From the NCBI GenBank assembly GCA_000002445.1, contig CM000207.1, positions 2,336,001 to 2,400,000 on the forward strand: a DNA stretch of 64,000 nucleotides, read 5' to 3'. The notes beneath the pieces were generated by a model. It had not been told where the DNA came from. It searched no databases and saw only the letters and a list, made by a program, of their open reading frames with translations. Origin of the DNA: Trypanosoma brucei (lineage: Eukaryota). Below, in pieces: positions 28,838-57,446 of this stretch. Each line of letters opens with the position of its first letter. Within the stretch, counting starts at the first letter, position 1. The translations under genes and the position numbers were made by a program.

Positions 28838-31688
28838 GTACCGCATTGGTGGGTTTGGAAAGTGAAAAAATAAAATAAAAAAATGCTACAAATAATAAAT
28901 GAATGAGGATGAAATGTGAAAGATGAAGGTGAAGTTGATGTGAATGTGAAAGATGTATCTTCTCCTTTTTCTTTTTCTTTTTCTTTATTTTTATCTTTCC
29001 TTTTGGTTTGGTTTTTAGTCTCTGTTGATGTTGATGTTGATTTTGTTTTTTGTTTTGTTTTTTTTTTCGTTTTGTGCTGTCCTTGTATTTACTTACTTCT
29101 CATCTGTTCGTGTAGTTTTCGGTTATTGCTGTTCTTGGACGCGTCGTGTGTTGCTCTGATTTCTTTTTTTTTCTTTTTTTTTTTCTATCATTCTCTCTTG
29201 TGTGTTTTGGTACCTGATTTGCTTCTTCTTCAGGCACTTTACCCTAGTTCCGCACTATCATCACTGCTGTTATTATTATTATTATTACTATTATTACTAT
29301 TACTGTTGCTGTTGCTATCATTTCCTCGTCTTGAATGCAACTTCATCTTCTTTCAGTCTTTTTTTCCATGCCTTTTTGATTTATTTGATTTATTTTATTT
29401 TGTTTTGTTTTTGCTGCAGGACACCCGAAGAAGGCATCGCAGCGACGTACCGTTTTGACAAGTATCAGTTACACAAAATATATTTAGATTAGGAATTTTA
29501 TAATTTAAAGCAATAAAGGGGGGGGGAAAAGAAAAAAAAAAGAGAACAGAAATCCACAAACACAAACACAAACAGAAGCCATATTTAACAAAATGGCACG
29601 AAGGTTCCTTCAATATGGATTTATGTTATTATTATTATTATTATCATTATTATTTTTTTAAATAAAACAAAATTAAAATAAAAGGAAAAGACATAACTGA
29701 TGGCATTTCCCGCATCAAGCAACTTTAAAAGGCAGCGAGAAAGAGATGATGGGGGTGGAGAGGGGAAAATTCAGCTTACTGACTTCAATTTATTGACTTT
29801 TTTTAAAATTTTTTCTCCTTTCTTTTACATTTATATTTATATTTGCATTTTCCCTGTGTTTAAGTGTAAGTTTATTTTAATACAGAGAGACGTATTGGAT
29901 TAACCCGCGGAAGTTAAGAATTGGGGTACACACCGCTTGTATAAATTAAAAAAAAAAACAACAACAACGAAAAACAAAAAAAAAAATATATATATGGTTT
30001 CCTTTTATGATATTGATATTATTTCCAGTAGTAATAACACTGTGAAATTATTAAGCGGCAGCAAATGTTAGCGAGTTTTGCGGAGGATTCCCACCACCAC
30101 CACCACCACCTCAAGAGGAAAAAAAAACGTGGCCCCTACGCTTCTCATAAACTCTCAATAGTGTGAATGCGTGCCTCATTATTATTATTATTATTTATTT
30201 ATTTATTTTTATTTTTATAATAGCTATAATTATAATTATGATTGTTTGTTTTTTCCTTTGATGTGTGTTTACTTTTTGATAATTTTAAATAATTACCGCT
30301 ACCGTAGCGGGACGGAGTGGGATGAATTGTATTCCTCTTTAAGTACTCTAGTAATTTAGTTATTGCATAAATTTGCTCTTTTTTTTATTTTTGTTTTTTT
30401 TTTCAAAAAAAAAAAAGGATGTGTGAACTCAAAACAGATTTGGTGTTAGAATTTGAGTTAGTGGTATCGGTTTCCAGACACTATAATTACTGATGTCGCA
30501 TTAAAGAGAGAAATAGAGAAATAAAGGCGCAAAAAAGCAGAGGGAAAAGGGAAACAATAAATAAATGAATATAATAAATAATTAAAAAAACGCTACACAG
30601 TACATGAGACTGCATGCACTCAATGCGGTAAAGCAGTGAATAAAATTAAATATGTGTAAAAACTGACGTGACAATATACAACTACTACAAAGTTGGAGAG
30701 GTTTAGTTGCGGTTATTTTATTTTATTTATTTTTTTGTCTTCATTTCTTCTTTATTTTTGGCTTCTTGTGATATGCTGATGGAAAATGTAATAATAATAT
30801 TTTAACAAATGGGTAAATAAATGATGTATTAATATTTACATTAAGACGAGAAGAGGAACATAAACATAAAGTCCACCGACAGCAGTAGTGGAAGCCGCAT
30901 GCGAGACATTAATGAAGGTAACAAAATAACAACAACATGAACATTTATCCATCGCATGTCCTACCATTTACGCTGCCGAATAATGCAAGATCATGTATCG
31001 CACTCGAAAGAACAAAATAAAAAAAAAACACACAAACGACGACACGCAAAAAAATATATATATATATATATATATATCGAGAACAACCACAATAAATAAT
31101 GCATTGGTGTCCAAAAAAAAAGGGGGGGAAAGGAAAACGAAGTTTTAAAAATAAACACGTAAAACAGATATGAGTGGCGTAAGTGACAATCAATTTTCCA
31201 CACCTTACACAGTGTTAAGATTAAAAAAAAAACAAAAAAAAATAAGGAATGGTAAACATCTCCCCATTGTAAATTAAATCGACCGCATTCATCAGCGGTG
31301 TTAATGCAGATAATAATTGACAAAACAAAAAGTCACGCAACAAACTAAACAACAACCGTTAATCACACAATTTAACAAATATCAGCGCAATACTGATCAT
31401 AAAGAATAAACAATAATAAAAGCAACAAAAATATTTTAAAAAATACATAATAACAACAACCTACATGAAACTGATAGCACAAATTGACTTGAATTCCAAT
31501 AACTCTATTTCATTGAAGCGGTGCAACAACGAGATAATTCCCTTGCGCTACTCATATTGATACTATTGTTGTTGCTATTCTTTGCATTTCCCACTGTTGA
31601 TTCCATTAATCTCTCCTAATTCTCATGACAAGAATCCACAACAAGACAGCAGACACAAGCTTCGATACCATCCGAATAAATAACAATT

Positions 31689-32579
31689 ATGAGCATCACT
31701 TTTAATAATTTATGGCTACTTTTGACAGTGTTATGCACTGCTAGAATTCGTGCTGATTTCATTGGGGAGGAGTGTCTCGACATAGTCTCTTATCCATCAG
31801 CTGATGTGGTACGCATTTTGTGCCATGTTGCAGGCCAGCTTCGAGGCCTATCACAGACAGTAAGTTCTGCTGTGGAAACTGCCGCTGCTGCTTCGAGTAA
31901 AGCATTTGAAGCAAAGGTACAAGCAGAGGAAGCTGTGGAACTTGCCGAGTCGAGAGGCCTAAACGTTACGAAAGCGAAGGAAGCTGCTGTGAGAGCAACA
32001 CACGCTGCTGAAGCTGCGGCTTTGGCTGCAAGTAACTTGGCTTTTGCCGCTGCAAATATTGCTGCGGTGCCGTGGTCACAACCAATCAGTGATTCCATGT
32101 TGCATAAACTCGCACTATGCGACCACGTCGACGAGTATGTGCGAGAGGCAGCAAAAAAGTGCACAAAGAAAGCGAAGAACGTGACGGCACAATCTCTCAA
32201 TGAGGTCCTCAAAGCGTTTGAGAAGCTGTTCAGTGAAGTAAATGCCTTGCAATCCTTACGGCATAATATTGCTGAGTTCCACAAAGACCTGAAATCGTTA
32301 GAGGATCACGTTGAAGACATTGTCCGTGCACAAAAAAATGCGGAAGATGCAGCTGCAGAGACAAATAAAATAGCAGCGCCTGATCATGAGGTAGGAGGTA
32401 ACAAAGAAGAAACACCAAGTCAACAGCCAGACACAAATCAAGATCAACAGGCAAATGAGAAACCTGAGGCAAATCAGACAGCCGGCACAAATACGGGACC
32501 ACTTGGAAATTCCGTTGCTTCACCTGAAGGGTCAGTGCTGCTACTGATGGCTGGATTGTTTCTCGGTTCTGTACTGTAA
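31689..32579 (+). CDS. BARP: BARP-like alanine-rich surface protein, copy 1 (296 aa)
   Basis: Signal peptide MSITFNNLWLLLTVLCTARIRA; conserved core SSKAFEAKVQAEEAVELAESRGLNVTKAKEAAVRAT; GPI signal NSVASPEGSVLLLMAGLFLGSVL. It carries a unique extension (APDHEVGGNKEETPSQQPDTNQDQQANEKPEANQTAGTNTGPLG) before the GPI signal. Confidence 0.85.
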   Translation: MSITFNNLWLLLTVLCTARIRADFIGEECLDIVSYPSADVVRILCHVAGQLRGLSQTVSSAVETAAAASSKAFEAKVQAEEAVELAESRGLNVTKAKEAAVRATHAAEAAALAASNLAFAAANIAAVPWSQPISDSMLHKLALCDHVDEYVREAAKKCTKKAKNVTAQSLNEVLKAFEKLFSEVNALQSLRHNIAEFHKDLKSLEDHVEDIVRAQKNAEDAAAETNKIAAPDHEVGGNKEETPSQQPDTNQDQQANEKPEANQTAGTNTGPLGNSVASPEGSVLLLMAGLFLGSVL

Positions 32580-33589
32580 GAGGTTGCAACTCCATGAATT
32601 GTGATCCCAACCATTCCACTTGTCTCCACACAGTTATGTGCACATACAGGTGAGGCAACAAACATCCTTTGATATTAACCTTATTTTCTATCAGTGGCTA
32701 TTAATATTGTTATTTTATTTTGTTTCATTTATACTTTCACTTTTATTCTTTTTAACTTTACTTTACTTTTCCTTTACTGTGTTATCTTTCGAATATCTGT
32801 TCCAACTTTTATCCTTCATTTTTATAACTGATTTTCTAGTGTGTTTATTGCCCTACTTTTAGTTGTATTTTTTCCTTTACCACCTTTGTTTTTTCATTAT
32901 TTTATTCATGTAAAGCACTGAGGTGATTGCGTGTGAGCATGGCCACCTATGCGTTACCATTGTAAAACCGTTTTGCTAAAATCTATCATTCCTACGCATC
33001 CATAATGTCCTATTGTATGCGTAAAGCTAACTGATTCTGAGGGTTTTTATTTTATCATGAAGCAAAACTGTTACACTGTGGGTTTACCTTCACATATCTC
33101 TCTCCCATTACTCATTACACTTATTTTATGTTGTATTCTCTCCCTTTTTATTTCATATCTCTATATTTTATGTTACTGTCAGTATGTTGTATCGTAATAG
33201 TGTAGGATACCCTAAATGCTCAATACATGTGCTCTTACTGATTCGATCAGATATTGATATTATCATGTCTAATGAAATGACTATTGGAAGTTTGGGTGTG
33301 TGCTATTGCATTGCCTCTCTGCTTTGTAATTATGATATTTGATTTCCACTGTCACTTAGAATTGTATTTAGTAGGGAGTGGGGACAGTTCCATGCTGTGA
33401 TGTGTGCAGTGTGCTTAAATGATGAGCTGATTGACTGTAATGGTGTCACTACTCATATTGATACTATTGTTGTTGCTATTCTTTGCATTTCCCACTGTTG
33501 ATTCCATTAATCTCTCCTAATTCTCATGACAAGAATCCACTACAAGACAGCAGACACAAGTTTCGATACCATCCGAATAAATAACAATT

Positions 33590-34372
33590 ATGAGCATCAC
33601 TTTTCATAACTTATGGCTACTTTTAACAGTGTTATGCACCGCAGGTATTCGTGCTGACGCAAGTAAGGAGGAGTGTCCGGATAAGGGATCTTATCCGGCA
33701 GCCGAGGACGTACTTGTATTGTGTCGTGTGGCGGAACAACTTCGAGGGTTACCGGATACAGTGAGTTCTGCTCTTGTTAATGCCGCTACTGCTTCGAGTA
33801 AAGCATTTGAAGCAAAGGTACAAGCAGAGGAAGCTGTGGAACTTGCCGAGTCGAAAGGCCTAAACGTTACGAAAGCGAAGGAAGCTGCTGTGAGAGCAAC
33901 ACTCGCTGCTGAAGCTGCGGCTACGGCTGCAAGTAATGTGGAAATTAACGCTGCAAATATTGCTGCGGTGCCGTGGCTTGAACGAAGACAAAATGTGGGT
34001 TGGCAGAAGCTTGCGAAGTGTATAGACTTAGATATGGACATGCGGGAAGCAGCAAGGGTGTGTAGAAGGGCAGCAGACAACGTGACAGCCCAATCCCTCA
34101 CTGCGGCGCTGAAGGATTTGGAGAAGGTTTATACTGATGTGAGTACTAGAGAAGCCTTACGGAAGGAAACCGTTGAGTTCCATAAAGAGCTCGCGTCTTT
34201 AGAGGAGCATGTCGAAGAGGCTGTCCGTGCACAAAAACGGGCTGAGGATGCAGCTGCATATGCGAATCAAACAGTCGGTACAAATACGGGACCAGTTGTG
34301 AATTCCGTTGCATCACCTGAAGGGTCAGTGCTGCTACTGATAGCTGGACTGTTTCTCGGTTCTGTACTGTAA
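33590..34372 (+). CDS. BARP: BARP-like alanine-rich surface protein, copy 2 (260 aa)
   Basis: Same signal peptide, core and GPI signal. N-terminal variable segment is type DASKEECPDKGSYPAAEDVLVLC. Confidence 0.85.
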   Translation: MSITFHNLWLLLTVLCTAGIRADASKEECPDKGSYPAAEDVLVLCRVAEQLRGLPDTVSSALVNAATASSKAFEAKVQAEEAVELAESKGLNVTKAKEAAVRATLAAEAAATAASNVEINAANIAAVPWLERRQNVGWQKLAKCIDLDMDMREAARVCRRAADNVTAQSLTAALKDLEKVYTDVSTREALRKETVEFHKELASLEEHVEEAVRAQKRAEDAAAYANQTVGTNTGPVVNSVASPEGSVLLLIAGLFLGSVL

Positions 34373-35384: not shown

Positions 35385-36167
35385 ATGAGCATCACTTTTC
35401 ATAATTTATGGCTACTTTTGACAGTGTTATGCACCGCAGGTGTTCGTGCTCATCATGGCTGGACCAATTGCTACCCTGCGGGAAACAGTCCACCAGTAGA
35501 AGAGATTCGTGCGTCATGCGAAGTGGCTCACCAACTTCGAGGCCTATCACAAACAGTAACATCTGCTGTGGAAACTTCCGCTGCTGCTTCGAGTAAAGCA
35601 TTTGAAGCAAAGGTACAAGCAGAGGAAGCTGTGGAACTTGCCGAGTCAAAAGGCCTAAACGTTACGAAAGCGAAGGAAGCTGCTGTGAGAGCAACACTCG
35701 CTGCTGAAGCTGCGGCTACGGCTGCAAGTAATGTGGAAATTAACGCTGCAAATATTGCTGCGGTGCCGTGGCTTGAACGAAGACAAAATACAGGTTGGGA
35801 GGTGCTTACGAAATGCATTAACTTAGACGATGATATAAAAAAAATGGCATCAAAGTGTAAAAGTGCAGCAGAAGTTGTAACAGCCGAATCGATCAGTGCG
35901 GCGTTAAACGATTTGGGGAAGACATTTATAAATGAGAAGACTCGAGAAGCCTTACGGAAGGAAAGCGTTGAGTTCCATAAAGAGCTCGCGTCTTTAGAGG
36001 AACATGTCGAAGAGGCTGTCCGTGCACAAAAACGGGCTGAGGATGCAGCTGCAGATGCGAATCAAACAGCCGGTACAAATACGGGACCAGTTGTGAATTC
36101 CGTTGCATCACCTGAAGGGTCAGTGCTGCTACTGATGGCTGGACTGTTTCTCGGTTCTGTACTGTAA
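35385..36167 (+). CDS. BARP: BARP-like alanine-rich surface protein, copy 3 (260 aa)
   Basis: N-terminal variable segment HHGWTNCYPAGNSPPVEEIRASC; conserved core and GPI signal. Confidence 0.85.
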   Translation: MSITFHNLWLLLTVLCTAGVRAHHGWTNCYPAGNSPPVEEIRASCEVAHQLRGLSQTVTSAVETSAAASSKAFEAKVQAEEAVELAESKGLNVTKAKEAAVRATLAAEAAATAASNVEINAANIAAVPWLERRQNTGWEVLTKCINLDDDIKKMASKCKSAAEVVTAESISAALNDLGKTFINEKTREALRKESVEFHKELASLEEHVEEAVRAQKRAEDAAADANQTAGTNTGPVVNSVASPEGSVLLLMAGLFLGSVL

Positions 36168-39074: not shown

Positions 39075-39947
39075 ATGAGCATCACTTTTAATAATTTATG
39101 GCTACTTTTGACAGTGTTATGCACCGCAGGTATTCGTGCTCATCATGTCTGGAATGATTGCTTTGCCGATGGAAGCTATCCACCACTAGAAGGTATACCC
39201 GCATTGTGTGGTGTGGCGGAACAACTTCGAGGTTTACCGGATACAATAAGTTCTGCTCTTGTTAATGTCGCTACTGCTTCGAGTAAAGCATTTGAAGCAA
39301 AGGTACAAGCAGAGGAAGCTGTGGAACTTGCCGAGTCGAAAGGCCTAAACGTTACGAAAGCGAAGGAAGCTGCTGTGAGAGCAACACTCGCTGCTGAAGC
39401 TGCGGCTACGGCTGCAAGTAATGTGGAAATTAACGCTGCAAATATTGCTGCGGTGCCGTGGTCACAAAGGAGACAGGATGCGGGGTTGCAAAAAGTTGCA
39501 CTATGCGACAATGTGGACAAGGATGTACGAGAGGCGGCAGCAAAGTGCACAAAGAAAGCGGAGAACGTGACAGCTGAATCTCTCCGTGCGGCACTAGAAG
39601 CGTTGGAGAATCTTGTTACTGATGTTAAATTCCAAGAAAATTTACGGAAGGAAGATGTCGAATTTCACACGGAGCTGAAATCATTAGAGGATCACGTGGA
39701 GGAGGCTGTCCGTGCACAAAGACAAGCTGAGGAAGCAGCTGCCGAGGCAATTAAAATAGTAGCTGCTGATGAGGAGGTGAGAGGATACAAAAAGGAAGAA
39801 ATTAATCAAGTAGCAGGGACAAAAAAAGGTCATGAGGCAAATCAAACAACCGGCACAAATACGGGACCAGTTGTGAATTCCGTTGCATCACCTGAAGGGT
39901 CAGTGCTGCTACTGATGGCTGGACTGTTTCTCGGTTCTGTACTGTAA
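39075..39947 (+). CDS. BARP: BARP-like alanine-rich surface protein, copy 5 (290 aa)
   Basis: N-terminal variable segment HHVWNDCFADGSYPPLEGIPALC. Its C-terminal 60 aa are identical to copy 4. Confidence 0.85.
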   Translation: MSITFNNLWLLLTVLCTAGIRAHHVWNDCFADGSYPPLEGIPALCGVAEQLRGLPDTISSALVNVATASSKAFEAKVQAEEAVELAESKGLNVTKAKEAAVRATLAAEAAATAASNVEINAANIAAVPWSQRRQDAGLQKVALCDNVDKDVREAAAKCTKKAENVTAESLRAALEALENLVTDVKFQENLRKEDVEFHTELKSLEDHVEEAVRAQRQAEEAAAEAIKIVAADEEVRGYKKEEINQVAGTKKGHEANQTTGTNTGPVVNSVASPEGSVLLLMAGLFLGSVL

Positions 39948-42742: not shown

Positions 42743-43579
42743 ATGAGCATCACTTTTAATAATTTATGGCTACTTTTGACAGTGTTATGCACTGCAGGTA
42801 TTCGTGCGCACGGTGACTGGAGAGATTGCTATGCTGCTAGGAAACCCCCACCGGCAGGACACGTACGTGTGGTGTGCAATTTGGCGGAACAACTTCGAGG
42901 GTTACCGGATACAGTAAGTTCTGCTCTTGTTAATGCCGCTGCTGCTTCGAGTAAAGCATTTGAAGCAAAGGTACAAGCAGAGGAAGCTGTGGAACTTGCC
43001 GAGTCGAGAGGCCTAAACGTTACGAAAGCGAAGGAAGCTGCTGTGAGAGCAACACTCGCTGCTGAAGCTGCGGCTACGGCTGCAAGTAATGTGGAAATTA
43101 ACGCTGCAAATGTCACTTCCTCGCGTTTGGCTCGTCGCAACCCTAACACAGGCTTTGAGAAAATTGCTATGTGCGAAAACTTGGACGAGGATGTACGAGA
43201 GGCAGCAGTAAAGTGTACAAAGAAAGCGGAGAACGTGACAACCCAATCTCTCAATGAAGCACTTCATAGGTTGGAGAATCTGTACACTAATATGAGTGCT
43301 CTTGAATCCTTACGGGTTGAACATGTTGAAATTGAACGCTTTTTTGAGATGCTCGAAGAACACGTAGAGGAGGCTGTGAGTGCACAAAGACAAGCTGAGG
43401 ATGCAGCTGCCGAGGCAATTAAAATAGCAGCTGCTGATGAGAAGGTGAGAGGATACAAAAAGGAAGAAATAAATCAAACAGCCGGCCCAAATACGGGACC
43501 AGTTGTGAATTCCGTTGCATCACCTGAAGGGTCGGTGCTGCTACTGATGGCTGGACTGTTTCTCGGTTCTGTACTGTAA
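42743..43579 (+). CDS. BARP: BARP-like alanine-rich surface protein, copy 7 (278 aa)
   Basis: Shares its N-terminal variable segment (HGDWRDCYAARKPPPAGHVRVVC) and central block (NVTSSRLARRNPNTGFEK...EHVEIERFFEMLEEHVEEAV) with copy 4. The C-terminus is shorter. Confidence 0.85.
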   Translation: MSITFNNLWLLLTVLCTAGIRAHGDWRDCYAARKPPPAGHVRVVCNLAEQLRGLPDTVSSALVNAAAASSKAFEAKVQAEEAVELAESRGLNVTKAKEAAVRATLAAEAAATAASNVEINAANVTSSRLARRNPNTGFEKIAMCENLDEDVREAAVKCTKKAENVTTQSLNEALHRLENLYTNMSALESLRVEHVEIERFFEMLEEHVEEAVSAQRQAEDAAAEAIKIAAADEKVRGYKKEEINQTAGPNTGPVVNSVASPEGSVLLLMAGLFLGSVL

Positions 43580-46381: not shown

Positions 46382-47362
46382 ATGAGCATCACTTTTCATA
46401 ATTTATGGCTACTTTTGACAGTGTTATGCACTGCAGGTATTCGTGCTGACCCAAGTAAGGAGGAGTGTCCGGATTTGGGAGGTTATCCATCAGCTGACGA
46501 CGTACTTGTATTGTGTTATTTGGCGGAACAACTTCGAGGGTTACCGGATACAATAAGTTCTGCTCTTGTTAATGCCGCTGCTGCTTCGAGTAAAGCATTT
46601 GAAGCAAAGGTACAAGCAGAGGAAGCTGTGGAACTTGCCGAGTCGAAAGGCCTAAACGTTACGAAAGCGAAGGAAGCTGCTGTGAGAGCAACACTCGCTG
46701 CTGAAGCTGCGGCCACGGCTGCAAGTAATGTGGAAATTAACGCTGCAAATATTTCTGCTTTCTCTATTGATTTTTTGGAGAGTGCGAACTTGTTGCTGTT
46801 TGAAGTTAGGGACGCAAAAGATGTTGGTGAAGACGTGAGAATCGTGGCGCAAAGGTGCACGGGTGAAGCGAACTTTGTTACGGTTGCTTCTCTAACCAAT
46901 GCACTGGATAATGTTACTTCTCTGTACTCCGTGTATGGTAAAGGCACGGCTTCTTTGAGTATGGAAAGTGTTGCCCTTTTGGAGGAGCTGAAGATGTTGG
47001 AAGATGGCTTGAAGAAGTCACAGGTTGCTGTTTCGGTGGCGGCTGACGCAGCAGACCAGTCGAAACTATTGGTAGATGCAGTTGAAGTATCGGGCAATAC
47101 TGCCAAAGGGGCTGTCAATAACCATAATACCGCAAATAATGAAAGCAACAAAGCAACAAGAAATAAAGATCAAGATGAAGGTAGAACAGTCGGAAACAAC
47201 GACAAGGAATTTACTATAACTTCTGAGGATTATACGAAGAAAAACCAAGGAGAAAACGGGGACCTGAGCTCGATTACCCTTACAGAAGATAGCGGAAGTT
47301 CTTTTATCGCTAAATATCCCTTTCACCTGTGTACCATATTCACTTTCTATACACTTCTATGA
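46382..47362 (+). CDS. Divergent BARP-family member, copy 9 (326 aa): canonical N-terminal half fused to an anciently diverged C-terminal half with a different GPI-like tail
   Basis: It is array-typical through ...AASNVEINAANI, then diverges (SAFSIDFLESANLLLFEV...). The remainder still aligns loosely to the BARP pattern: CTGEANFVTVASLTNALDNVTSLY vs CTKKAENVTAQSLNEALHRLENLY. It ends in an Asn/Thr-rich stretch and a hydrophobic tail (DSGSSFIAKYPFHLCTIFTFYTLL). The 170 bp downstream (47363–47530) is unrelated to the array consensus before the repeat resumes. Confidence 0.7.
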   Translation: MSITFHNLWLLLTVLCTAGIRADPSKEECPDLGGYPSADDVLVLCYLAEQLRGLPDTISSALVNAAAASSKAFEAKVQAEEAVELAESKGLNVTKAKEAAVRATLAAEAAATAASNVEINAANISAFSIDFLESANLLLFEVRDAKDVGEDVRIVAQRCTGEANFVTVASLTNALDNVTSLYSVYGKGTASLSMESVALLEELKMLEDGLKKSQVAVSVAADAADQSKLLVDAVEVSGNTAKGAVNNHNTANNESNKATRNKDQDEGRTVGNNDKEFTITSEDYTKKNQGENGDLSSITLTEDSGSSFIAKYPFHLCTIFTFYTLL

Positions 47363-48321
47363 TAAGCGACGGCGTAACAATTTTTGTCACAAACACATTC
47401 CGAGACGTCATTTAATTAATACAATCATGAATTAAACTTATCCACGGTATATACAAAAGTGCGACTTTCCACGAAAAGGTCGTCATCTTTTCCCTAAAAC
47501 ACCTTCTCTTGTATTTTATAAAAAGTTGTTGTTGCTTTTATCTTTCTTTTTTATAACTGTGCAGCTGAGGTGCGTCTATTTTCCTATTTTCATTTTTATT
47601 TTTTTCCTTTACTAACTTTGTTTTTTCATTATTTTATTCATGTAATGCACTGAGGTGATTGCGTGTAAGCATGGCCACCTATGCGTTACCATTGTAAAAC
47701 CGTGTTACTAAAACGTATCATTCCTACGCATCCATAATGTCCTATTGTATGCGTAAAGCTAACTGATTCTGAGGGTTTTTATTTTATCATGAAGCAAAAA
47801 TGTTACACTGTGGGTTTACCTTCACATATCTCTCTCCCATTACTCATTACACTTATTTTATGTTGTATTCTCTCCCTTTTTATTTCATATCTCTATATTT
47901 TATGTTACTGTCAGTAGGTTGTATCGTAATAGTGTAGGATACCCTAAATACTCAATACATGTGCTCTTGTTGATTCGATCAGATATTGATATTATCGTGT
48001 CTAATGAAATGACTATTGGAAGTTTGGGTGTGTGCTATTGCATTGCCTCTCTGCTTTGTAATTATGATATTTGATTTCCACTGTCACTTAGAATTGTATT
48101 TAGTAGGGAGCGGGGACAGTTCCATGCTGTGATGTGTGCAGTGTGCTTAAATGATGAGCTGATTGACTGTAATGGTGTCACTACTCATATTGATACTATT
48201 AATGTTGCTATTCCCTGTATTTCCTACTGTTGATTCCATTAATCTCTCCTAATTCTCATGACAAGAATCCACTACAAGACAGCACACACAAGTTTCGATA
48301 CCATCCAAATTAATAACAATT

Positions 48322-49104
48322 ATGAGCATCACTTTTAATAATTTATGGCTACTTTTGACAGTGTTATGCACTTCAGGTATTCGTGCTCATCATGTCTGGA
48401 ATGATTGCTTTGCTGATGGAAACCATCCACCTGTAGATGAGATTCCCGTCTTGTGTCGTGTGGCGGAACAACTTCGAGGTTTACCGGATACAATAAGTTC
48501 TGCTGTGGAAACTGCCGCTGCTGCTTCGAGTAAAGCATTTGAAGCAAAGGTACAAGCAGAGGAAGCTGTGGAACTTGCCGAGTCGAAAGGCCTAAACGTT
48601 ACGAAAGCGAAGGAAGCTGCTGTGAGAGCAACACTCGCTGCTGAAGCTGCGGCTACGGCTGCAAGTAATGTGGAAATTAACGCTGCAAATATTGCTGCGG
48701 TGCCGTGGTCACAACGAAGACAGGATGTGGGGTTACAGGAACTTGCACTATGCGACAATGTGGACAAGGATGTACGAGAGGCGGCAGCAAAGTGTACAAA
48801 GAAAGCGGACAACGTGACAGCCCAATCGCTCAGTGCGGCACTAGAAGCGTTGGAGAATTTATACACTGATGTGAATACCCGGGAGACCTTGCGGCGGGAA
48901 GATGTTGAGTTTCACACGGAGCTGAAATCGTTAGAGGAACATGTGGAGGAGGCTGTCCGTGCACAAAAACAAGCTGAGGATGCAGCTGCAGATGCAATTA
49001 AAATAGCCGGTACAAATACGGGACCAGTTGTGAATTCCGTTGCATCACCTGAAGGGTCGGTGCTGCTACTGATGGCTGGATTGTTTCTCGGTTCTGTACT
49101 GTAA
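48322..49104 (+). CDS. BARP: BARP-like alanine-rich surface protein, copy 10 (260 aa)
   Basis: N-terminal variable segment HHVWNDCFADGNHPPVDEIPVLC (copy-5 type); conserved core and GPI signal. Confidence 0.85.
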   Translation: MSITFNNLWLLLTVLCTSGIRAHHVWNDCFADGNHPPVDEIPVLCRVAEQLRGLPDTISSAVETAAAASSKAFEAKVQAEEAVELAESKGLNVTKAKEAAVRATLAAEAAATAASNVEINAANIAAVPWSQRRQDVGLQELALCDNVDKDVREAAAKCTKKADNVTAQSLSAALEALENLYTDVNTRETLRREDVEFHTELKSLEEHVEEAVRAQKQAEDAAADAIKIAGTNTGPVVNSVASPEGSVLLLMAGLFLGSVL

Positions 49105-50117: not shown

Positions 50118-50900
50118 ATGAGCATCACTTTTCATAACTTATGGCTACTTTTGACAGTGTTATGCACTGCAGGTATTCGTGCTGACTATATCTGGAACAA
50201 CTGCTCTGTTGAAAACAGTCATCCTCCGCTGGAAGAAATACGTGTCTTGTGTCGTGTGGCGGAACAGCTTCGAGGGTTACCGGAGACAGTAAGTTCTGCT
50301 GTGGAAACTGCCGCTGCTGCTTCGAGTAAAGCATTTGAAGCAAAGGTACAAGCAGAGGAAGCTGTGGAACTTGCCGAGTCGAGAGGTCTAAACGTTACGA
50401 AAGCAAAGGAAGCTGCTGTGAGAGCAACACTCGCTGCTGAAGCTGCGGCCACGGCTGCAAGTAATGTGGAAATTAACGCTGCAAATATTGCTGCGGTGCC
50501 GTGGTTACAACCAATCTCTGATGCAGGTTTGGAAAACCTTTCTAAATGCGAGCACATAGACAAGTATGTGCAGGAGGCGGCAGCAGAGTGCTCAAAGAAA
50601 GCAGAACATGTGACGGCTCAATCGCTTAGTGCGGCACTGGAAGGGTTGGAGAATCTATTCACTGATGTGAGTACTAGGGAAGCCTTACGGAAGGAAACCA
50701 TTGAGTTTCACACTGAGCTGAAATCGTTAGAGGAACATGTCGAAGAGGCTGTCCGTGCACAAAAACGGGCTGAGGATGCAGCTGCATATGCGAATCAAAC
50801 AGTCGGTACAAATACGGGACCAGTTGGAAATTCTGTTGCATCACCTGAAGGGTCAGTGCTGCTACTGATGGCTGGACTGTTTCTCGGTTCTGTACTGTAA
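50118..50900 (+). CDS. BARP: BARP-like alanine-rich surface protein, copy 11 (260 aa)
   Basis: N-terminal variable segment DYIWNNCSVENSHPPLEEIRVLC; conserved core and GPI signal. Confidence 0.85.
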   Translation: MSITFHNLWLLLTVLCTAGIRADYIWNNCSVENSHPPLEEIRVLCRVAEQLRGLPETVSSAVETAAAASSKAFEAKVQAEEAVELAESRGLNVTKAKEAAVRATLAAEAAATAASNVEINAANIAAVPWLQPISDAGLENLSKCEHIDKYVQEAAAECSKKAEHVTAQSLSAALEGLENLFTDVSTREALRKETIEFHTELKSLEEHVEEAVRAQKRAEDAAAYANQTVGTNTGPVGNSVASPEGSVLLLMAGLFLGSVL

Positions 50901-51913
50901 GAGGTTGCAACTCCATGAATTGTGATCCCAACCATTCCACTTGTCTCCACACAGTTATGTGCACATACAAGTGAGGCAACAAATATCCTTTGATATTAGT
51001 ATTATTTTCTATCAGTGGCTATTAATATTGTTATTTTATTTTGTTTCATTTATACTTTCATTTTTATTATTCTTTTTACTTTACTTTTCCTTTCATTATT
51101 TTATCTTTCGAATATCTGTTGTAACTTTTATCCTTCATTTTTATAACTGATTTTCTAGTGTGTTTATTGCCCTACTTTTTAGCTATATTTTTTCCTTTAT
51201 TACCTTTTTTATTTCATTATTTTATTCATGTATTGCACTGAGGTGATTGCGTGTAAGCATGGCCACCTATGCGTTACAATAGTGACACTTTTTTTTTAAT
51301 CAAAATCTATCATTCCTACGCATCCATAATGTCCTATTGTATGCGTAAAGCTAACTGATTCTGAGGGGTTTTATTTTATCATGAAGCAAAAATGTTACAC
51401 TGTGGGTTTACCTTCACATATCTCTCTCCCATTACTCATTACACTTATTTTATGTTGTATTCTCTCCCTTTTTATTTCATATCTCTATATTTTATGTTAC
51501 TGTCAGTAGGTTGTATCGTAATAGTGTAGGATACCCTAAATACTCAATACATGTGCTCTTACTGATTCCATCAGATATTGATATTATCGTGTCTAATGAA
51601 ATGACTATTGGAAGTTTGGGTGTGTGCTATTGCATTGCCTCTCTGCTTTGTAATTATGATATTTGATTTCCACTGTCACTTAGAATTGTATTTAGTAGGG
51701 AGTGGGGACAGTTCCATGCTGTGATGTGTGCAGTGTGCTTAACTGATGAGCTGATTGACTGTAATGGTGTCACTACTCATATTGATACTATTGTTGTTGC
51801 TATTCTTTGTATTTCCCACTGTTGATTCCAATAATCTCTCCTAATTCTCATGACAAGAATCCACTACAAGACAGCAGACACAAGTTTCGATACCATCCAA
51901 ATTAATAACAATT

Positions 51914-52678
51914 ATGAGCATCACTTTTCATAACTTATGGCTACTTTTGACAGTGTTATGCACTGCAGGTATTCGTGCTGACGATATCTGGAACGACTGC
52001 CTTGCCAGCAGTAATGGTCCACCACTGAAACACATAGAAGTGTTATGTAATTTGGCGGAACAACTTCGAGGTTTACCGGATACAGTAAGTTCTGCTGTGA
52101 TTTCTGTAACGGAAGCATCTATAAAGGCCTCGAAAGCAAAGGTACAAGCAGAGGAAGCTGTGGAACTTGCCGAGTCGAAAGGCCTAAACGTTACGAAAGC
52201 GAAGGAAGCTGCTGTGAGAGCAACACTCGCTGCTGAAGCTGCGGCTACGGCTGCAAGTAATGTGGAAATTAACGCTGCAAATATTGCTGAACTTCCTTGG
52301 TCTCAAAGGAGGAGAGACGCTGGTTTGCAGAATATTGAACACTGCAAAAATTTGGATAAGGATGTACGAGAGGCAGCAGTAAAGTGTACAAAGAAAGCGG
52401 AGAACGTGACAGCCGATTCTCTCCGTGCGGCACTGGAAGGGTTGGAAACATTGTTCAGCGACGTTTACATACTAGTAACGTTGCGGAAGGAAAAAGTTGA
52501 GATGCAGGAAGAAATGCAATCGTTAGAACAAAACGCAGCGACAGTCCTTCGTGTACTTCAAAAGGCTGAGGATGCAGCAGCTGATGCAAATCGAGAAGCC
52601 CTTGGAAATTCCGTTGCATCACCTGAAGGCTCGGTGCTGCTACTGATGGCTGGATTGTTTCTCGGTTCTGTACTGTAA
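51914..52678 (+). CDS. BARP: BARP-like alanine-rich surface protein, copy 12 (254 aa)
   Basis: N-terminal variable segment DDIWNDCLASSNGPPLKHIEVLC. The segment after the N-terminal variable block is divergent (VISVTEASIKASKAKVQAEE). The C-terminus is shortened (ANREALGNSVASPEGS...). Confidence 0.85.
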   Translation: MSITFHNLWLLLTVLCTAGIRADDIWNDCLASSNGPPLKHIEVLCNLAEQLRGLPDTVSSAVISVTEASIKASKAKVQAEEAVELAESKGLNVTKAKEAAVRATLAAEAAATAASNVEINAANIAELPWSQRRRDAGLQNIEHCKNLDKDVREAAVKCTKKAENVTADSLRAALEGLETLFSDVYILVTLRKEKVEMQEEMQSLEQNAATVLRVLQKAEDAAADANREALGNSVASPEGSVLLLMAGLFLGSVL

Positions 52679-53688
52679 GAGGTTGCAACTCCATGAATTG
52701 TGATCCCAACCATTCCACTTGTCTCCACACAGTTATGTGCACATACAAGTGAGGCAACAAACATCCTTTCATATTAACCTTATTTTCTATCAGTGGCTAT
52801 TAATATTGTTATTTTATTTTGTTTCATTTATACTTTCACTTTTATTATTCTTTTTACTTTACTTTTCCTTTCATTATTTTATCTTTCGAATATCTGTTCC
52901 AACTTTTATCCTTCATTTTTATAACTGATTTTCTAGTGTGTTTATTGCCCTACTTTTAGTTGTATTTTTTCCTTTATTACCTTTTTTATTTCATTATTTT
53001 ATTCATGTAATGCACTGAGGTGATTGCGTGTAAGCATGGCCATCTATGCGTTACAATAGTGACACTTTTTTTTATCAAAATCTATCATTCCTACGCATCC
53101 ATAATGTCCTATTGTATGCGTAAAGCTAACTGATTCTGAGGGTTTTTATTTTATCATGAAGCAAAAATGTTACACTGTGGGTTTACCTTTACATATCTCT
53201 CTCCCATTACTCATTACACTTATTTTATGTTGTATTCTCTCCCTTTTTATTTCATATCTCTATATTTTATGTTACTGTCAGTATGTTGTATCGTAATAGT
53301 GTAGGATACCCTAAATGCTCAATACATGTGCTCTTACTGATTCGATCAGATATTGATATTATCGTGTCTAATGAAATGACTATTGGAAGTTTGGGTGTGT
53401 GCTATTGCATTGCCTCTCTGCTTTGTAATTATGATATTTGATTTCCACTGTCACTTAGAATTGTATTTAGTAGGGAGTGGGGACAGTTCCATGCTGTGAT
53501 GTGTGCAGTGTGCTTAAATGATGAGCTGATTGACTGTAATGGTGTCACTACTCATATTGATACTATTGTTGTTGCTATTCTTTGCATTTCCCACTGTTGA
53601 TTCCATTAATCTCTCCTAATTCTCATGACAAGAATCCACTACAAGACAGCAGACACAAGTTTCGATACCATCCGAATAAATAACAATT

Positions 53689-54474
53689 ATGAGCATCACT
53701 TTTCATAATTTATGGCTACTTTTGACAGTGTTATGCACTGCAGGTATTCGTGGTGATCGAGTCTGGTACGATTGTCCAGAAAAAGGAGTGGACACATCGC
53801 GGGACGACATACAAGCTTTGTGCCGTGCAGCGGAGCAGTTCAGAGGCCTATCACAAACAGTAACATCTGCTGTGGAAACTTCCGCGGCTGCTTCAAGTAA
53901 AGCATTTGAAGCAAAGGTACAAGCAGAGGAAGCTGTGGAACTTGCCGAGTCGAGAGGCCTAAACGTTACGAAAGCGAAGGAAGCTGCTGTGAGAGCAACA
54001 CTCGCTGCTGAAGCTGCGGCCACGGCTGCAAGTAATGTGGAAATTGACGCTGCAAATATTGCTGCGGTGCCGTGGTCACAACCAAGCAGTGATGCAGGTT
54101 TACAAAAGCTGGCACTTTGTGAAAACATCGACAAGAGTTTACGACAGTTGGCATCAAAGTGCTCGAAGAGAGCGGAAAACGTGACGGCCCAATCGCTCAG
54201 TGAGGCGTTGGAGGGACTAAGAAAACTACACTACAATGATGTATACGTTAAGGAAATATTAGAGAGAGAAGATGTTGAGTTCCACAAAGAGTTTATGTGG
54301 TTACAGCACCACCTCCGGGAGGCTGTCCGTGCACAAAAACAGGCTGAGGATGCAGCTGCAGAGGCGAATGAAATAGCCGGCACAAATACGGGACCAGTTG
54401 GAAATTCCGTTGCATCACCTGAAGGGTCAGTGCTGCTACTGATGGCTGGACTGTTTCTCGGTTCTGTACTGTAA
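53689..54474 (+). CDS. BARP: BARP-like alanine-rich surface protein, copy 13 (261 aa)
   Basis: N-terminal variable segment DRVWYDCPEKGVDTSRDDIQALC; conserved core and GPI signal. Confidence 0.85.
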   Translation: MSITFHNLWLLLTVLCTAGIRGDRVWYDCPEKGVDTSRDDIQALCRAAEQFRGLSQTVTSAVETSAAASSKAFEAKVQAEEAVELAESRGLNVTKAKEAAVRATLAAEAAATAASNVEIDAANIAAVPWSQPSSDAGLQKLALCENIDKSLRQLASKCSKRAENVTAQSLSEALEGLRKLHYNDVYVKEILEREDVEFHKEFMWLQHHLREAVRAQKQAEDAAAEANEIAGTNTGPVGNSVASPEGSVLLLMAGLFLGSVL

Positions 54475-55486
54475 GAGGTTGCAACTCCATGAATTGTGAT
54501 CCCAACCATTCCACTTGTCTCCACACAGTTATGTGCACATACAAGTGGGGCAGCAAACATCCTTTCATATTAACCTTATTTTCTATCAGTGGCTATTAAT
54601 ATTGTTATTTTATTTTGTTTCATTTATACTTTCACTTTTATTATTCTTTTTACTTTACTTTACTTTTCCTTTCATTATTTTATCTTTCGAATATCTGTTG
54701 TAGCTTTTATCCTTCATTTTTATAACTGATTTTCTAGTGTGTTTATTGCCCTACTTTTAGTTGTATTTTTTCCTTTATTACCTTATTTTTCATTATTTTA
54801 TTCATGTATTGCACTGAGGTGATTGCGTGTAAGCATGGCCATCTATGCGTTACAATAGTGACACTTTTTTAATCAAAATCTATCATTCCTACGCATCCAT
54901 AATGTCCTATTGTATGCGTAAAGCTAACTGATTCTGAGGGTTTTTATTTTATCATGAAGCAAAACTGTTACACTGTGGGTTTACCTTCACATATCTCTCT
55001 CCCATTACTCATTACACTTATTTTATGTTGAATTCTCTCCCTTTTTATTTCATATCTCTATATTTTATGTTACTGTCAGTAGGTTGTATCGTAATAGTGT
55101 AGGATACCCTAAATACTCAATACATGTGCTCTTACTGATTCCATCAGATATTGATATTATCGTGTCTAATGAAATGACTATTGGAAGTTTGGGTGTGTGC
55201 TATTGCATTGCCTCTCTGCTTTGTAATTATGATATTTGATTTCCACTGTCACTTAGAATTGTATTTAGTAGGGAGTGGGGACAGTTCCATGCTGTGATGT
55301 GTGCAGTGTGCTTAAATGATGAGCTGATTGACTGTAATGGTGTCACTACTCATATTGATACTATTGTTGTTGCTATTCTTTGTATTTCCCACTGTTGATT
55401 CCGTTAATCTCTCCTAATTCTCATGACAAGAATCCACTACAAGACAGCAGACACAAGTTTCGATACCATCCAAATTAATAACAATT

Positions 55487-56269
55487 ATGAGCATCACTTT
55501 TCATAACTTATGGCTACTTTTGACAGTGTTATGCACTGCAGGTATTCGTGCTGACGATATCTTGAATAATTGCTCTGCTGGTAGGAAACCCCCACCGGCA
55601 GTATACGTAACTGCCTTGTGTCGTGTGGCGGAACAACTTCGAGGGTTAGGAGGGACTATTAGTTCCTCTCTTCTTACTGTAACTTCCGCGTCAAGTAAAG
55701 CATTCAAAGCAAAGGTACAAGCAGAGAAGGCTGTGAAACTTGCCGAGTCGAGAGGCCTAAACGTTACGAAAGCGAAGGAAGCTGCTGTGAGAGCAACACT
55801 CGCTGCTGAAGCTGCGGCCACGGCTGTGAGCTATTGTATTACCCATTCTACGAAAGTTGGGTCAATTGCAGAGATGCTATGGGAGGTAGATGAGGAGCTG
55901 CATGTTTTTTCGTTATGTGGTAACAAAGACAGGGATGTACAAGATACGGCATTAAAGTGTACTGATACAGCGGAAGGTGTAACAGCCCAATCGCTCAGTG
56001 AGGCGCTAGAAGGGTTAGCTAAATTAGTTTTTGACGACAACGTTGCTAGAAAGTTGCGGCAGGAAGATACTGTGTTCCAGAGAGAATTTATGTGGTTACA
56101 GCAGCACATGGAGGAGGCTGTCCGTGCACAAAAACAAGCTGAGGATGCAGCTGCAGATGCAAATGAAACAGCCGGCCCAAATACGGGACCAGTTGTGAAT
56201 TCTGTTGCATCACCTGAAGGGTCAGTGCTGCTACTGATGGCTGGACTGTTTCTCGGTTCTGTACTGTAA
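55487..56269 (+). CDS. BARP: BARP-like alanine-rich surface protein, copy 14 (260 aa)
   Basis: N-terminal variable segment DDILNNCSAGRKPPPAVYVTALC. The core has substitutions (KAFKAKVQAEKAVKLAE). The central block (AVSYCITHSTKVGSIAEMLWEVDEELHVFSLCGNKDRDVQD) is related to that of copies 6 and 8. Confidence 0.85.
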   Translation: MSITFHNLWLLLTVLCTAGIRADDILNNCSAGRKPPPAVYVTALCRVAEQLRGLGGTISSSLLTVTSASSKAFKAKVQAEKAVKLAESRGLNVTKAKEAAVRATLAAEAAATAVSYCITHSTKVGSIAEMLWEVDEELHVFSLCGNKDRDVQDTALKCTDTAEGVTAQSLSEALEGLAKLVFDDNVARKLRQEDTVFQREFMWLQQHMEEAVRAQKQAEDAAADANETAGPNTGPVVNSVASPEGSVLLLMAGLFLGSVL

Positions 56270-57446
56270 GAGGTTGCAACTCCATGAATTGTGATCCCAA
56301 CCATTCCACTTGTCTCCACACAGTTATGTGCACATACAAGTGAGGCAGCAAACATCCTTTCATATTAACCTTATTTTCTATCGATAATTATATATTTTTT
56401 AAAATTTCCTTTATATTTTCACTTTTATTATTCTTTTTACTTTACTTTACTTTTCCTTTACTGTGTTATCTTTCGAATATCTGTTGTAGCTTTTGTCCTT
56501 TATTTTCTTAATTTTTTTTAATTGTCGGGAAAGTCTCGTAATTAATAAAAATAAGTTTTTTATTACCTTTTTTTTTAATTATTTTATTCATGTATTGCAC
56601 TGAGGTGATTGCGTGTAAGCATGGCCACCTATGCGTTACCATTGTAAAACCGTTTTGCTAAAATCTATCATTTCTACGCATCCATAATGTCCTATTGTAT
56701 GCGTAAAGCTAACTGATTCTGAGGGTTTTTATTTTATCATGAAGCAAAACTGTTACACTGTGGGTTTACCTTCACATATCTCTCTCCCATTACTCATTAC
56801 ACTTATTTTATGTTGTATTCTCTCCCTTTTTATTTCATATCTCTATATTTTATGTTACTGTCAGTAGGTTGTATCGTAATAGTGTAGGATACCCTAAATG
56901 CTCAATACATGTGCTCTTACTGATTCCATCAGATATTGATATTATCGTGTCTAATGAAATGACTATTGGAAGTTTGGGTGTGTGCTATTGCATTGCCTCT
57001 CTGCTTTGTAATTATAATATTTGATTTGTTCTTGCATCGTGTTATGTTTTTATGTTTCTTTTTTGTTTATAGGATAGTATTATTTTTTGTTATGATGTTG
57101 AAATTTCGTACTTCAAAAAAAATATTAGTGGTGTAATATCCTTTCCTTTGTCGGTTATTTAGTTTTTCTCTTGACACCTTGTTTCTATTGTTATTGACCT
57201 TTTTTTCCCCCATTCTTTTAATCATTTACTTTCTTCTTTTTTAATATATGTGTACTTTATAGTTTCTTTATGTTCTAATATTGCTTGTTCGTGTTATTGT
57301 GTTGGTGCGAAAATAATTCATTTTTTTTTTTGTCGTTGTTTCATATATCCTTGTGCATATTTTTCTTTGGCTTCTCTTTTGTAGTAATAAGTGTGGAAGG
57401 TGGAGGGCGGAGGGAACGAGTGAGTTTTAATACAAATTAGTCGTAG

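What the first reader, a model, noticed from the sequence alone, without database searches (positions are those of the whole stretch)
31543..57020. About 25.5-kb tandem array of 14 alanine-rich GPI-signal surface protein genes (BARP/GARP family)
Fourteen head-to-tail units, each with a 765–980 bp CDS plus about 1 kb of conserved spacer, fill 40% of the window. Each product has the same 22-aa signal peptide, a conserved Ala/Glu/Lys-rich helical core carrying a conserved N-glycosylation sequon (LNVTKAKEAAVRAT), and a conserved C-terminal GPI signal (NSVASPEGSVLLLMAGLFLGSVL). This is the architecture of the brucei alanine-rich protein (BARP) coat of salivary-gland epimastigotes and of T. congolense GARP, and the copy number matches what I recall for the T. 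brucei chromosome 9 BARP locus. The array as a whole is a stage-specific surface-coat gene factory, and the internal structure (next findings) suggests a diversification mechanism.
Basis: partly seen in the sequence, partly recalled or inferred. Interest (0 to 1): 0.7.

Follow-up and report, generated by a model that had tools for sequence, protein, structure and literature searches.

The report
Known T. brucei BARP gene array

Summary
Fourteen head-to-tail units lie on the + strand, with repeat homology from 31548 to 57027. CDSs are 765–981 bp, spacers 959–1019 bp and periods 1775–1940 bp. All 14 products are 100% identical to consecutive annotated 'BARP protein' entries of T. b. brucei TREU927 (EAN77358–EAN77371) on the 3.06-Mb record. 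They match Pfam GARP (E 1e-61 to 4e-72) and T. congolense GARP (PDB 2Y44, E 2e-17).

- The signal peptide is identical in only 8 of 14 copies.
- The quoted GPI-signal motif is exact in 10 copies and near-exact in 3.
- Copy 9 (46382–47362) lacks the motif. It has a roughly 100-aa predicted-disordered C-terminal extension, a weaker hydrophobic tail and no Cys144. This form is 91% conserved in T. b. gambiense.

Spacers (p-distance 0.06), signal peptide and a core (aa 61–116; dS 0.14) are homogenised. Two coding blocks (aa 23–60 and 117–200) are anciently diverged (dS about 0.9–1.0, dN/dS about 0.4) and are reshuffled by recombination (PHI p ≤ 0.001). This pattern was already published for BARP (Jackson 2007).

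Verdict: real, correctly interpreted, already known. Low interest.

The parts
31548..57027 (+). Whole BARP tandem array: 14 units, from 141 bp upstream of the first ATG to 758 bp after the last stop
   Evidence: BLASTN of unit 11 against the window; ORF table
31689..32579 (+). BARP copy 1, 296 aa, with a 36-aa C-terminal insertion. Identical to EAN77358/XP_827688
   Evidence: (Pfam GARP 1.1e-68)
33590..34372 (+). BARP copy 2, 260 aa, EAN77359. The first 263 nt are identical to copy 6, but the central block is nearest copy 3
35385..36167 (+). BARP copy 3, 260 aa, EAN77360
37184..38056 (+). BARP copy 4, 290 aa, EAN77361. Shares an exact 268-nt tract with copy 5 over the C-terminal insertion
39075..39947 (+). 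BARP copy 5, 290 aa, EAN77362
40962..41729 (+). BARP copy 6, 255 aa, EAN77363. Mosaic: 5' end like copy 2, 3' end like copy 8, with the junction at about CDS nt 263–267 inside the conserved core
42743..43579 (+). BARP copy 7, 278 aa, EAN77364
44595..45362 (+). BARP copy 8, 255 aa, EAN77365
46382..47362 (+). BARP copy 9, 326 aa, EAN77366; by position this should be Tb927.9.15590. Divergent copy: the GARP fold is kept, Cys144 is lost, and there is a roughly 100-aa predicted-disordered C-terminal extension with a non-canonical, weaker hydrophobic tail. Unit homology is interrupted from 46759 to 47526
   Evidence: PMC10089363
48322..49104 (+). BARP copy 10, 260 aa, EAN77367
50118..50900 (+). BARP copy 11, 260 aa, EAN77368 (P0001, 100% identity)
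51914..52678 (+). BARP copy 12, 254 aa, EAN77369
53689..54474 (+). BARP copy 13, 261 aa, EAN77370
55487..56269 (+). BARP copy 14, 260 aa, EAN77371. The most divergent canonical copy
51788..51857 (+). Example, upstream of copy 12, of the pyrimidine-rich tract followed by the first AG at −57. It sits at the same position before all 14 ATGs and is inferred to be the trans-splice acceptor region
   Evidence: sequence conservation only; function inferred

Best explanation
This is the chromosome 9 BARP (brucei alanine-rich protein) locus of Trypanosoma brucei brucei TREU927. It consists of 14 tandem genes for GPI-anchored, N-glycosylated surface proteins with a three-helix-bundle fold of the GARP/Fam50 family. 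These proteins form the coat of epimastigotes attached in the tsetse salivary gland.

How it works:
- The array lies inside a Pol II polycistron in which every ORF of the window is on the + strand. There are no gene-specific promoters, so output is raised by copy number.
- Each unit carries its own conserved polypyrimidine tract and AG (first AG at −57) for trans-splicing, plus a roughly 0.9-kb near-identical 3' region. All copies can therefore be co-regulated after transcription, through mRNA stability and translation, in salivary-gland stages.
- Gene conversion and unequal crossing-over keep the spacers, signal peptide, core (aa 61–116) and GPI signal homogeneous.
- Two old, strongly diverged coding blocks (aa 23–60 and aa 117–200) escape homogenisation. 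By bundle topology they should form the membrane-distal half of the molecule. They are reassorted by crossovers that fall in the conserved core, which gives a mosaic isoform repertoire.

Shown here: the identity of the genes, the fold, the array anatomy, the divergence pattern and the recombination signal. Taken from the literature: stage specificity, surface localisation and GPI anchorage. Inferred: the splice site, the regulatory role of the 3' UTR and the distal location of the variable blocks.
For: Identity: 14/14 exact matches to consecutive TREU927 BARP entries, flanked by ArfGAP EAN77356, Tb09.244.2390 EAN77372 and ESAG4-like EAN77373.

Family and fold: Pfam GARP at 1e-61 to 4e-72 against a cut-off of 27.4 bits. 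PDB 2Y44 GARP E 2.3e-17, 6XZ6 E 2.4e-5, 5VTL E 0.038. The AF2 model of even the aberrant copy 9 superposes on 2Y44 with TM 0.91 and rmsd 1.9 Å.

Array anatomy.

Divergence: dS is 0.92 and 1.03 in the two variable blocks, against 0.14 in the signal peptide and core and a p-distance of 0.061 in the spacers. dN/dS is 0.2–0.4 and pN/pS is below 1 in all pairs tested.

Recombination: PHI observed 0.560 against 0.615±0.006 in permutations, p ≤ 0.001. Nearest neighbours are incongruent between blocks. Exact tracts of 250–444 nt are shared between non-adjacent copies, with junctions in the core.

Processing signals: a conserved Y-tract and AG lie upstream of all 14 ATGs.

Literature:
- BARP array Tb93 has CDS distance 0.335 against 0.073 and 0.038 for the UTRs (PMC1855330).
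- Tb927.9.15520–15640 are up-regulated in salivary glands (PMC8483307).
- BARP transcripts are 87-fold up in salivary glands compared with midgut (PMC5176191).
- BARP is a triple-helical-bundle protein on salivary-gland forms, and only Tb927.9.15590 has a C-terminal domain (PMC10089363).
Against: Nothing contradicts the identification. The limits are these:
- No dedicated SignalP or GPI predictor was available, so the signal and ω-site calls rest on simple rules.
- Copy 9 may not be GPI-anchored.
- No expression data were analysed here.
- The dS values of the variable blocks are near saturation, so dN/dS is rough and site-specific positive selection is not excluded.
- The biochemical function of BARP is unknown in the literature (PMC8591177).
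- The copy number of a 1.8-kb repeat in a Sanger-era assembly could be imprecise.
Confidence: 0.97

Rival explanations
1. The array is purely a gene-dosage device. On this view the coding variability is functionally irrelevant drift in regions of low constraint, and the mosaicism is a by-product of tandem-array recombination rather than a diversification mechanism.
For: dN/dS is about 0.4 in the variable blocks and pN/pS never exceeds 1, even in closely related pairs. [quoted passage not shown] Multiple isoforms are co-expressed (PMC8483307).
Against: All 14 ORFs remain intact despite dS of about 1 in the variable blocks. The four Cys residues and the C-x3-A-x2-VTxxSL motif inside the variable block are kept. 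Homogenisation is efficient immediately to either side (spacer 0.06, core dS 0.14) yet stops at the variable blocks, which suggests that selection opposes their homogenisation.
Confidence: 0.3
2. Some units, especially copy 9, are decaying pseudogenes, or the assembled copy number is wrong. The functional family would then be smaller than 14.
For: Copy 9 lacks Cys144, and its tail hydrophobicity is about half that of the others (KD15 1.15 against 2.35). It is only 91% identical to its T. b. gambiense counterpart, which is annotated from an internal Met. DAL972 has 13 annotated BARP entries, one of them partial. Read-depth differences in the BARP array between strains have been noted (PMC4288722).
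Against: The copy 9 ORF is intact over 326 codons. It passes Pfam GARP at 1.4e-61 and is predicted to keep the bundle fold. Its special C-terminal half is retained in T. b. gambiense. Tb927.9.15590 transcripts rise in salivary glands (log2FC 2.9; PMC8483307).
Confidence: 0.15
3. The genes belong to another alanine-rich surface family (VSG-related, procyclin-associated, MISP or the factor H receptor) rather than to BARP.
For: The three-helix-bundle fold is shared with MISP360, the factor H receptor, HpHbR and, more distantly, ISG65.
Against: The proteins are 100% identical to annotated BARP entries. Sequence similarity to 6XZ6 and 5VTL is far weaker (E 2.4e-5 and 0.038) than to GARP (2.3e-17). 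MISP genes lie on chromosome 7 (PMC10089363).
Confidence: 0.01

Closest known systems
BARP (brucei, formerly 'bloodstream', alanine-rich protein) array of T. b. brucei TREU927 chromosome 9. The Tb927.9.15510–15640 numbering is inferred; GenBank entries are EAN77358–EAN77371
   Same: It is this locus: all 14 proteins are identical, in the same order and with the same flanking genes.
   Different: Nothing.
T. b. gambiense DAL972 BARP array (CBH14888–CBH14900)
   Same: It is syntenic, lying between the ArfGAP and the 'T. brucei spp.-specific protein'. It has the same isoform types, including the copy-9-type long form.
   Different: It has 13 annotated entries, one partial and some duplicated, against 14 here. 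Isoforms are 79–99% identical rather than identical.
T. congolense GARP (PDB 2Y44; Pfam PF16731)
   Same: It has the same domain and the same three-helix-bundle fold: E 2.3e-17 by sequence, and TM 0.91 with rmsd 1.9 Å to the model. It is also a GPI-anchored insect-stage coat protein (PMC3605285).
   Different: Identity is about 34%. The two form species-specific sister clades. GARP is also found on procyclic and metacyclic forms (PMC8591177).
T. brucei MISP (5VTL), factor H receptor (6XZ6) and HpHbR (4X0J, 4E40)
   Same: All are elongated trypanosome three-helix-bundle surface proteins. MISP is co-expressed with BARP in the salivary glands (PMC10089363).
   Different: Identity is only 18–24%, the loci are different, and the ligands are known (FH, HpHb) or the dispensability is known (MISP). 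No BARP ligand is known.

Membership tests
BARP (T. brucei) | Sequence identity to the annotated and experimentally studied BARP genes | tested here: met
   14/14 exact matches to EAN77358–EAN77371 'BARP protein'
BARP (T. brucei) | Tandem array on chromosome 9, in a + strand polycistron between the ArfGAP and an ESAG4-like adenylate cyclase | tested here: met
   Record length is 3,057,547 bp. Flanking proteins are EAN77356, EAN77372 and EAN77373. The array is named in PMC4288722 and PMC1855330
BARP/GARP (Pfam PF16731, Fam50) | GARP domain above Pfam's gathering score | tested here: met
   207.8–242.4 bits against a 27.4-bit cut-off in the 5 copies scanned, including the most divergent ones (9 and 14). 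PF16731 is precomputed for all hits
BARP/GARP (Fam50) | Conserved Cys followed by the VTxxSL motif (Jackson 2013) | tested here: met
   C159, A163, V166, T167 and S170 are invariant and L171 is nearly invariant across 21 sequences (alignment)
BARP/GARP (Fam50) | Elongated three-helix-bundle ectodomain | tested here: met
   In the AF2 model of copy 9, residues 38–243 have pLDDT of about 80–90. Foldseek gives 2Y44 E 2.4e-10 and TM 0.91. Copy 11 aligns to 2Y44 over residues 38–221
BARP (T. brucei) | N-terminal secretory signal peptide | tested here: met
   Rule-based only. There is a 10-residue h-region with mean KD 2.34 and an I/V-R-A/G motif before the mature N-terminus in all 14 copies. SignalP was not available
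BARP (T. brucei) | C-terminal GPI-addition signal (13 canonical copies) | tested here: met
   Rule-based only. The 15-residue tail has mean KD of about 2.35. S-V-A is the only ω/ω+2 candidate conserved in all 13 copies and gives a 21-aa cleaved peptide. big-PI, PredGPI and NetGPI were not available. GPI anchorage is stated in PMC8483307 and PMC8591177
BARP (T. brucei) | C-terminal GPI-addition signal (copy 9) | tested here: inconclusive
   The tail is different and its mean KD15 is 1.15. ω candidates D-S-G, S-G-S and G-S-S sit 21–23 residues from the end
BARP (T. brucei) | Expression restricted to salivary-gland (epimastigote) stages | not testable with these tools
   Literature only: PMC8483307 Table 1, PMC5176191, PMC10089363

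The most novel reading that the evidence does not exclude
The conserved core (CDS nt 181–348) and the near-identical spacers may act as fixed crossover sites. These sites would reassort two ancient, membrane-distal variable cassettes (aa 23–60 and 117–200). The array would then hold, and keep regenerating, a combinatorial set of epimastigote coat isoforms with different binding surfaces, for example for tsetse salivary-gland epithelium or saliva ligands, by analogy with the related factor H and HpHb receptors. Copy 9 would be a distinct tethered long form.
Probability: 0.2. Interest if true: 0.4.

Novelty: already known. Interest (0 to 1): 0.08.

Why it matters
BARP is the marker and major coat of the tsetse salivary-gland epimastigote, the stage that precedes mammal-infective metacyclic forms. 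Its function is still unknown. This window adds nothing to what is annotated and published. Its value is as a positive control showing that the first-stage reader can recognise a surface-coat gene array from raw sequence.

The only mildly useful points are two. First, an explicit map of homogenised against non-homogenised segments, with recombination junctions in the conserved core. Second, the oddities of copy 9.

Tried and rejected
- Tandem Repeats Finder found nothing, because its longest period is 500 bp and the unit is 1.8 kb. BLASTN was used instead.
- Rfam at gathering thresholds found no RNA family in the whole window, so the ultra-conserved distal spacer is not a known ncRNA.
- The look-up of encoding contigs had no record for P0001, so chromosome coordinates could not be obtained.
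- The downstream ORF at 57447–58487 was tested as a possible 15th, divergent family member. It had no Pfam hit, hhalign probability of 1% against the BARP profile and only T. brucei-group orthologues. The single-sequence AF2 model had pLDDT 50.8. Foldseek and phmmer against the PDB were uninformative. It is therefore not shown to be related.
- Positive selection as the source of variability was rejected: pN/pS is below 1 in every pair and region tested.
- The Mantel correlation between distances in the two variable blocks was weak and not significant (r = 0.21, p = 0.08). This fits reassortment but is not decisive on its own.
- The original BARP paper (Urwyler et al. 2007) is not in the searchable library, so its content is cited only through later papers.
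Full report
**1. Observation**

Listing ORFs of at least 150 aa between 30000 and 58500 gives 14 intact + strand ORFs. Their ATGs are at 31689, 33590, 35385, 37184, 39075, 40962, 42743, 44595, 46382, 48322, 50118, 51914, 53689 and 55487. The other ORFs listed over the array are antisense reading frames lying within the alanine-rich CDSs. CDS length including the stop codon is 765–981 bp (254–326 aa), spacers are 959–1019 bp and the unit period is 1775–1940 bp.

BLASTN of unit 11 (50118–51913) against the whole window finds homology only from 31548 to 57027. That runs from 141 bp upstream of the first ATG to 758 bp after the last stop. About 103 nt of each interior spacer (unit-11 coordinates 1553–1655) occur in neither outer flank.

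The motif LNVTKAKEAAVRAT is present in all 14 products. The claim that each product has 'the same' signals needs trimming:
- The 22-aa signal peptide equals the consensus MSITFHNLWLLLTVLCTAGIRA in 8 copies. The other 6 have one or two substitutions.
- The quoted C-terminal 23-mer is exact in 10 copies. B02 and B08 have 1 substitution and B06 has 2.
- Copy 9 (46382–47362) lacks the 23-mer altogether.

**2. What it is**

A search with copy 11 returned a 100% identical 'BARP protein [Trypanosoma brucei brucei TREU927]' on a 3,057,547-bp record. It also returned further BARP entries from T. b. brucei, T. b. gambiense and T. equiperdum, all carrying Pfam PF16731.

Exact-sequence look-ups show that all 14 window products are in GenBank as consecutively numbered BARP entries, EAN77358–EAN77371 (XP_827688–XP_827701). 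The neighbouring genes are the ArfGAP EAN77356, the hypothetical Tb09.244.2390 (EAN77372) and an ESAG4-like adenylate cyclase (EAN77373). The window is thus the annotated TREU927 chromosome 9 BARP locus, and the copy number of 14 matches the annotation.

Family and fold evidence:
- The five copies scanned, including the two most divergent, hit Pfam GARP at E 1.4e-61 to 3.6e-72.
- Against PDB sequences the best relatives are T. congolense GARP 2Y44 (E 2.3e-17), 6XZ6 (2.4e-5) and MISP360 5VTL (0.038).
- An AlphaFold2 model was built with the aberrant copy 9 as target. It has confident helices over residues 38–243 and a low-confidence tail over 241–326.
- Foldseek places that model on 2Y44 (E 2.4e-10, target TM 0.91, rmsd 1.9 Å), then on MISP360, the factor H receptor and the HpHb receptors.
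- The Fam50 signature described by Jackson et al. 2013 (a Cys followed by VTxxSL) is invariant or nearly so across 21 aligned BARPs.

**3. Literature**

- BARP is described as the GPI-anchored coat of salivary-gland epimastigotes, and its function is unknown (PMC8591177).
- BARP transcripts are 87-fold higher in salivary glands than in midgut (PMC5176191).
- Thirteen gene IDs, Tb927.9.15520–15640, are listed as up-regulated in salivary glands (PMC8483307).
- BARP was modelled as a triple-helical bundle like GARP and MISP. [quoted passage not shown]

If copy 1 is Tb927.9.15510, copy 9 is 15590, which fits the one long form seen here. This mapping is an inference.

**4. Anatomy and evolution of the array**

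An alignment of the 14 units shows that the non-coding spacers are more alike than parts of the CDS. The table gives mean pairwise identity along the unit.

| Segment | Mean pairwise identity |
|---|---|
| CDS nt 61–120 | 55–60% |
| CDS nt 361–660 | 55–68% |
| Signal peptide | 96% |
| CDS nt 241–300 | 97.5% |
| Spacer, 420–770 nt after the stop | 97–99.8% |

Nei–Gojobori estimates, with copy 9 excluded, are as follows.

| Region | dS | dN/dS |
|---|---|---|
| aa 23–60 | 0.92 | about 0.4 |
| aa 117–200 | 1.03 | about 0.4 |
| Signal peptide | 0.14 | 0.17 |
| Core, aa 61–116 | 0.14 | 0.42 |

The spacer p-distance is 0.061. In closely related pairs pN/pS stays below 1. The variable blocks are therefore old divergence under moderate purifying selection, not recent hypermutation or gene-wide positive selection. 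Everything around them is homogenised by concerted evolution.

Recombination is evident from three results:
- The PHI statistic is 0.560, against 0.615±0.006 in 1000 permutations (p ≤ 0.001).
- Nearest neighbours differ between blocks. B02 is identical to B06 in the N-terminal block, but in the central block it is closest to B03.
- Exact tracts of 250–444 nt are shared by non-adjacent copies. Examples are B06/B08 over CDS nt 267–725, B02/B06 over nt 1–263, B04/B05 across the C-terminal insertion, and B01, B06 and B12 in the distal spacer.

B06 therefore reads as a B02-type 5' part joined to a B08-type 3' part, with the junction inside the conserved core.

This 'CDS more variable than UTRs' pattern is already published for this very array. 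Jackson 2007 reports array Tb93 with a CDS distance of 0.335, against 0.073 for the 5' UTR and 0.038 for the 3' UTR (PMC1855330). Jackson 2013 discusses concerted evolution in Fam50 (PMC3605285).

**5. How it most likely works**

Every large ORF of the window is on the + strand, as expected for a trypanosome polycistron. This reading rests on established knowledge of kinetoplastid gene expression. In that setting tandem amplification is the way to raise mRNA output, and stage control acts on processing, stability and translation.

All 14 copies, including the first, have the same pyrimidine-rich tract at about −126 to −66 and the same first AG at −57. I infer that this is the trans-splice acceptor region. 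The near-identical 3' regions would let one set of RNA-binding factors control all copies. This too is inferred and was not tested.

The products have the following features:
- A hydrophobic N-terminal signal.
- A conserved sequon at N92 in the H1–H2 turn.
- Four conserved Cys residues in the mature protein.
- In 13 copies, a 15-residue hydrophobic tail (mean KD about 2.35) preceded by a polar spacer.

By simple ω/ω+2 rules, the only candidate conserved in all 13 copies is S-V-A, which gives a 21-aa cleaved peptide.

The bundle topology is H1 54–88, H2 94–144 and H3 187–243, with the C-terminus at the anchor. From this, the two variable blocks should form the membrane-distal half of the molecule and the conserved core the proximal half. 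This is an inference, because the model coordinates were not analysed.

**6. Copy 9**

- Unit homology is interrupted from 46759 to 47526.
- The central block is about 50% different at the DNA level from every other copy.
- Cys144 is missing.
- There is a roughly 100-aa Asn/Asp/Glu/Lys-rich extension that is predicted to be disordered.
- The tail is less hydrophobic (mean KD15 1.15), with ω candidates D-S-G, S-G-S and G-S-S 21–23 residues from the end.
- The same form exists in T. b. gambiense at 91% identity, annotated from an internal Met.

It is either a distinct long-tether isoform or a copy under relaxed constraint. The evidence does not decide between these.

**7. Verdict**

The locus is annotated and well studied, including its array evolution. 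It is already known and of low interest.

The most novel reading not excluded is this: the conserved core and spacers may serve as crossover sites that reassort two ancient membrane-distal cassettes into functionally different coat isoforms. That remains speculative (probability about 0.2).

Noticed in passing
window 57447-58487 (+): Directly after the array lies a 346-aa ORF (Tb09.244.2390, EAN77372, 'T. brucei spp.-specific protein'). It has a hydrophobic N-terminus, seven N-x-S/T sequons, an Ala-rich sequence and a hydrophobic C-terminal tail. The low-confidence AF2 model predicts three long helices (33–90, 95–166, 197–291). That is surface-protein-like architecture, but no relation to BARP was detectable (hhalign probability 1%) and the only homologues are in the T. 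brucei group. A UniRef entry for the T. equiperdum orthologue is named 'variant surface glycoprotein (A-type)'.
   Followed up: partly
window 46382-47362 (+), with divergent tract 46759-47526: BARP copy 9 is a structural outlier. It has lost Cys144, gained a roughly 100-aa predicted-disordered extension and has a non-canonical C-terminal tail. This form is conserved at 91% in T. b. gambiense, where it is annotated without its signal peptide.
   Followed up: yes
window 51320-51675 and the equivalent part of every spacer (about 420–770 nt after each stop): This is the most conserved part of the whole repeat, at 97–99.8% mean pairwise identity, higher than any coding segment. It matches no Rfam family. 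It presumably includes the distal 3' UTR and the polyadenylation region.
   Followed up: partly
window 28838-31547: A 2.7-kb AT-rich (about 34–35% GC), low-complexity intergenic stretch separates the ArfGAP gene from the first BARP unit. It contains only repeat-driven pseudo-ORFs (poly-Leu, poly-Tyr). GenBank numbering leaves room for one annotated entry here (EAN77357), which was not identified.
   Followed up: no
window 27596-28837 (+): The ArfGAP homologue (EAN77356) carries long Asn/Asp homopolymer runs (…[19 protein letters not shown]…) in its C-terminal half. The T. b. gambiense orthologue differs in length by 2 aa.
   Followed up: no
window 519-9665 (+) and 60157-63885 (+): A 3048-aa ORF lies at the left end of the window. 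An ESAG4-like receptor adenylate cyclase (EAN77373; Pfam periplasmic-binding and cyclase domains) lies at the right end. All large ORFs in the window are on the + strand, which fits a single polycistron.
   Followed up: partly
window 31790-32284, 46516-47151, 48390-48866, 55831-56355 (−): Long antisense ORFs (158–211 aa) overlap several BARP CDSs. They lie within the alanine-rich coding sequence and were not examined further. No evidence was sought that they are genes.
   Followed up: no
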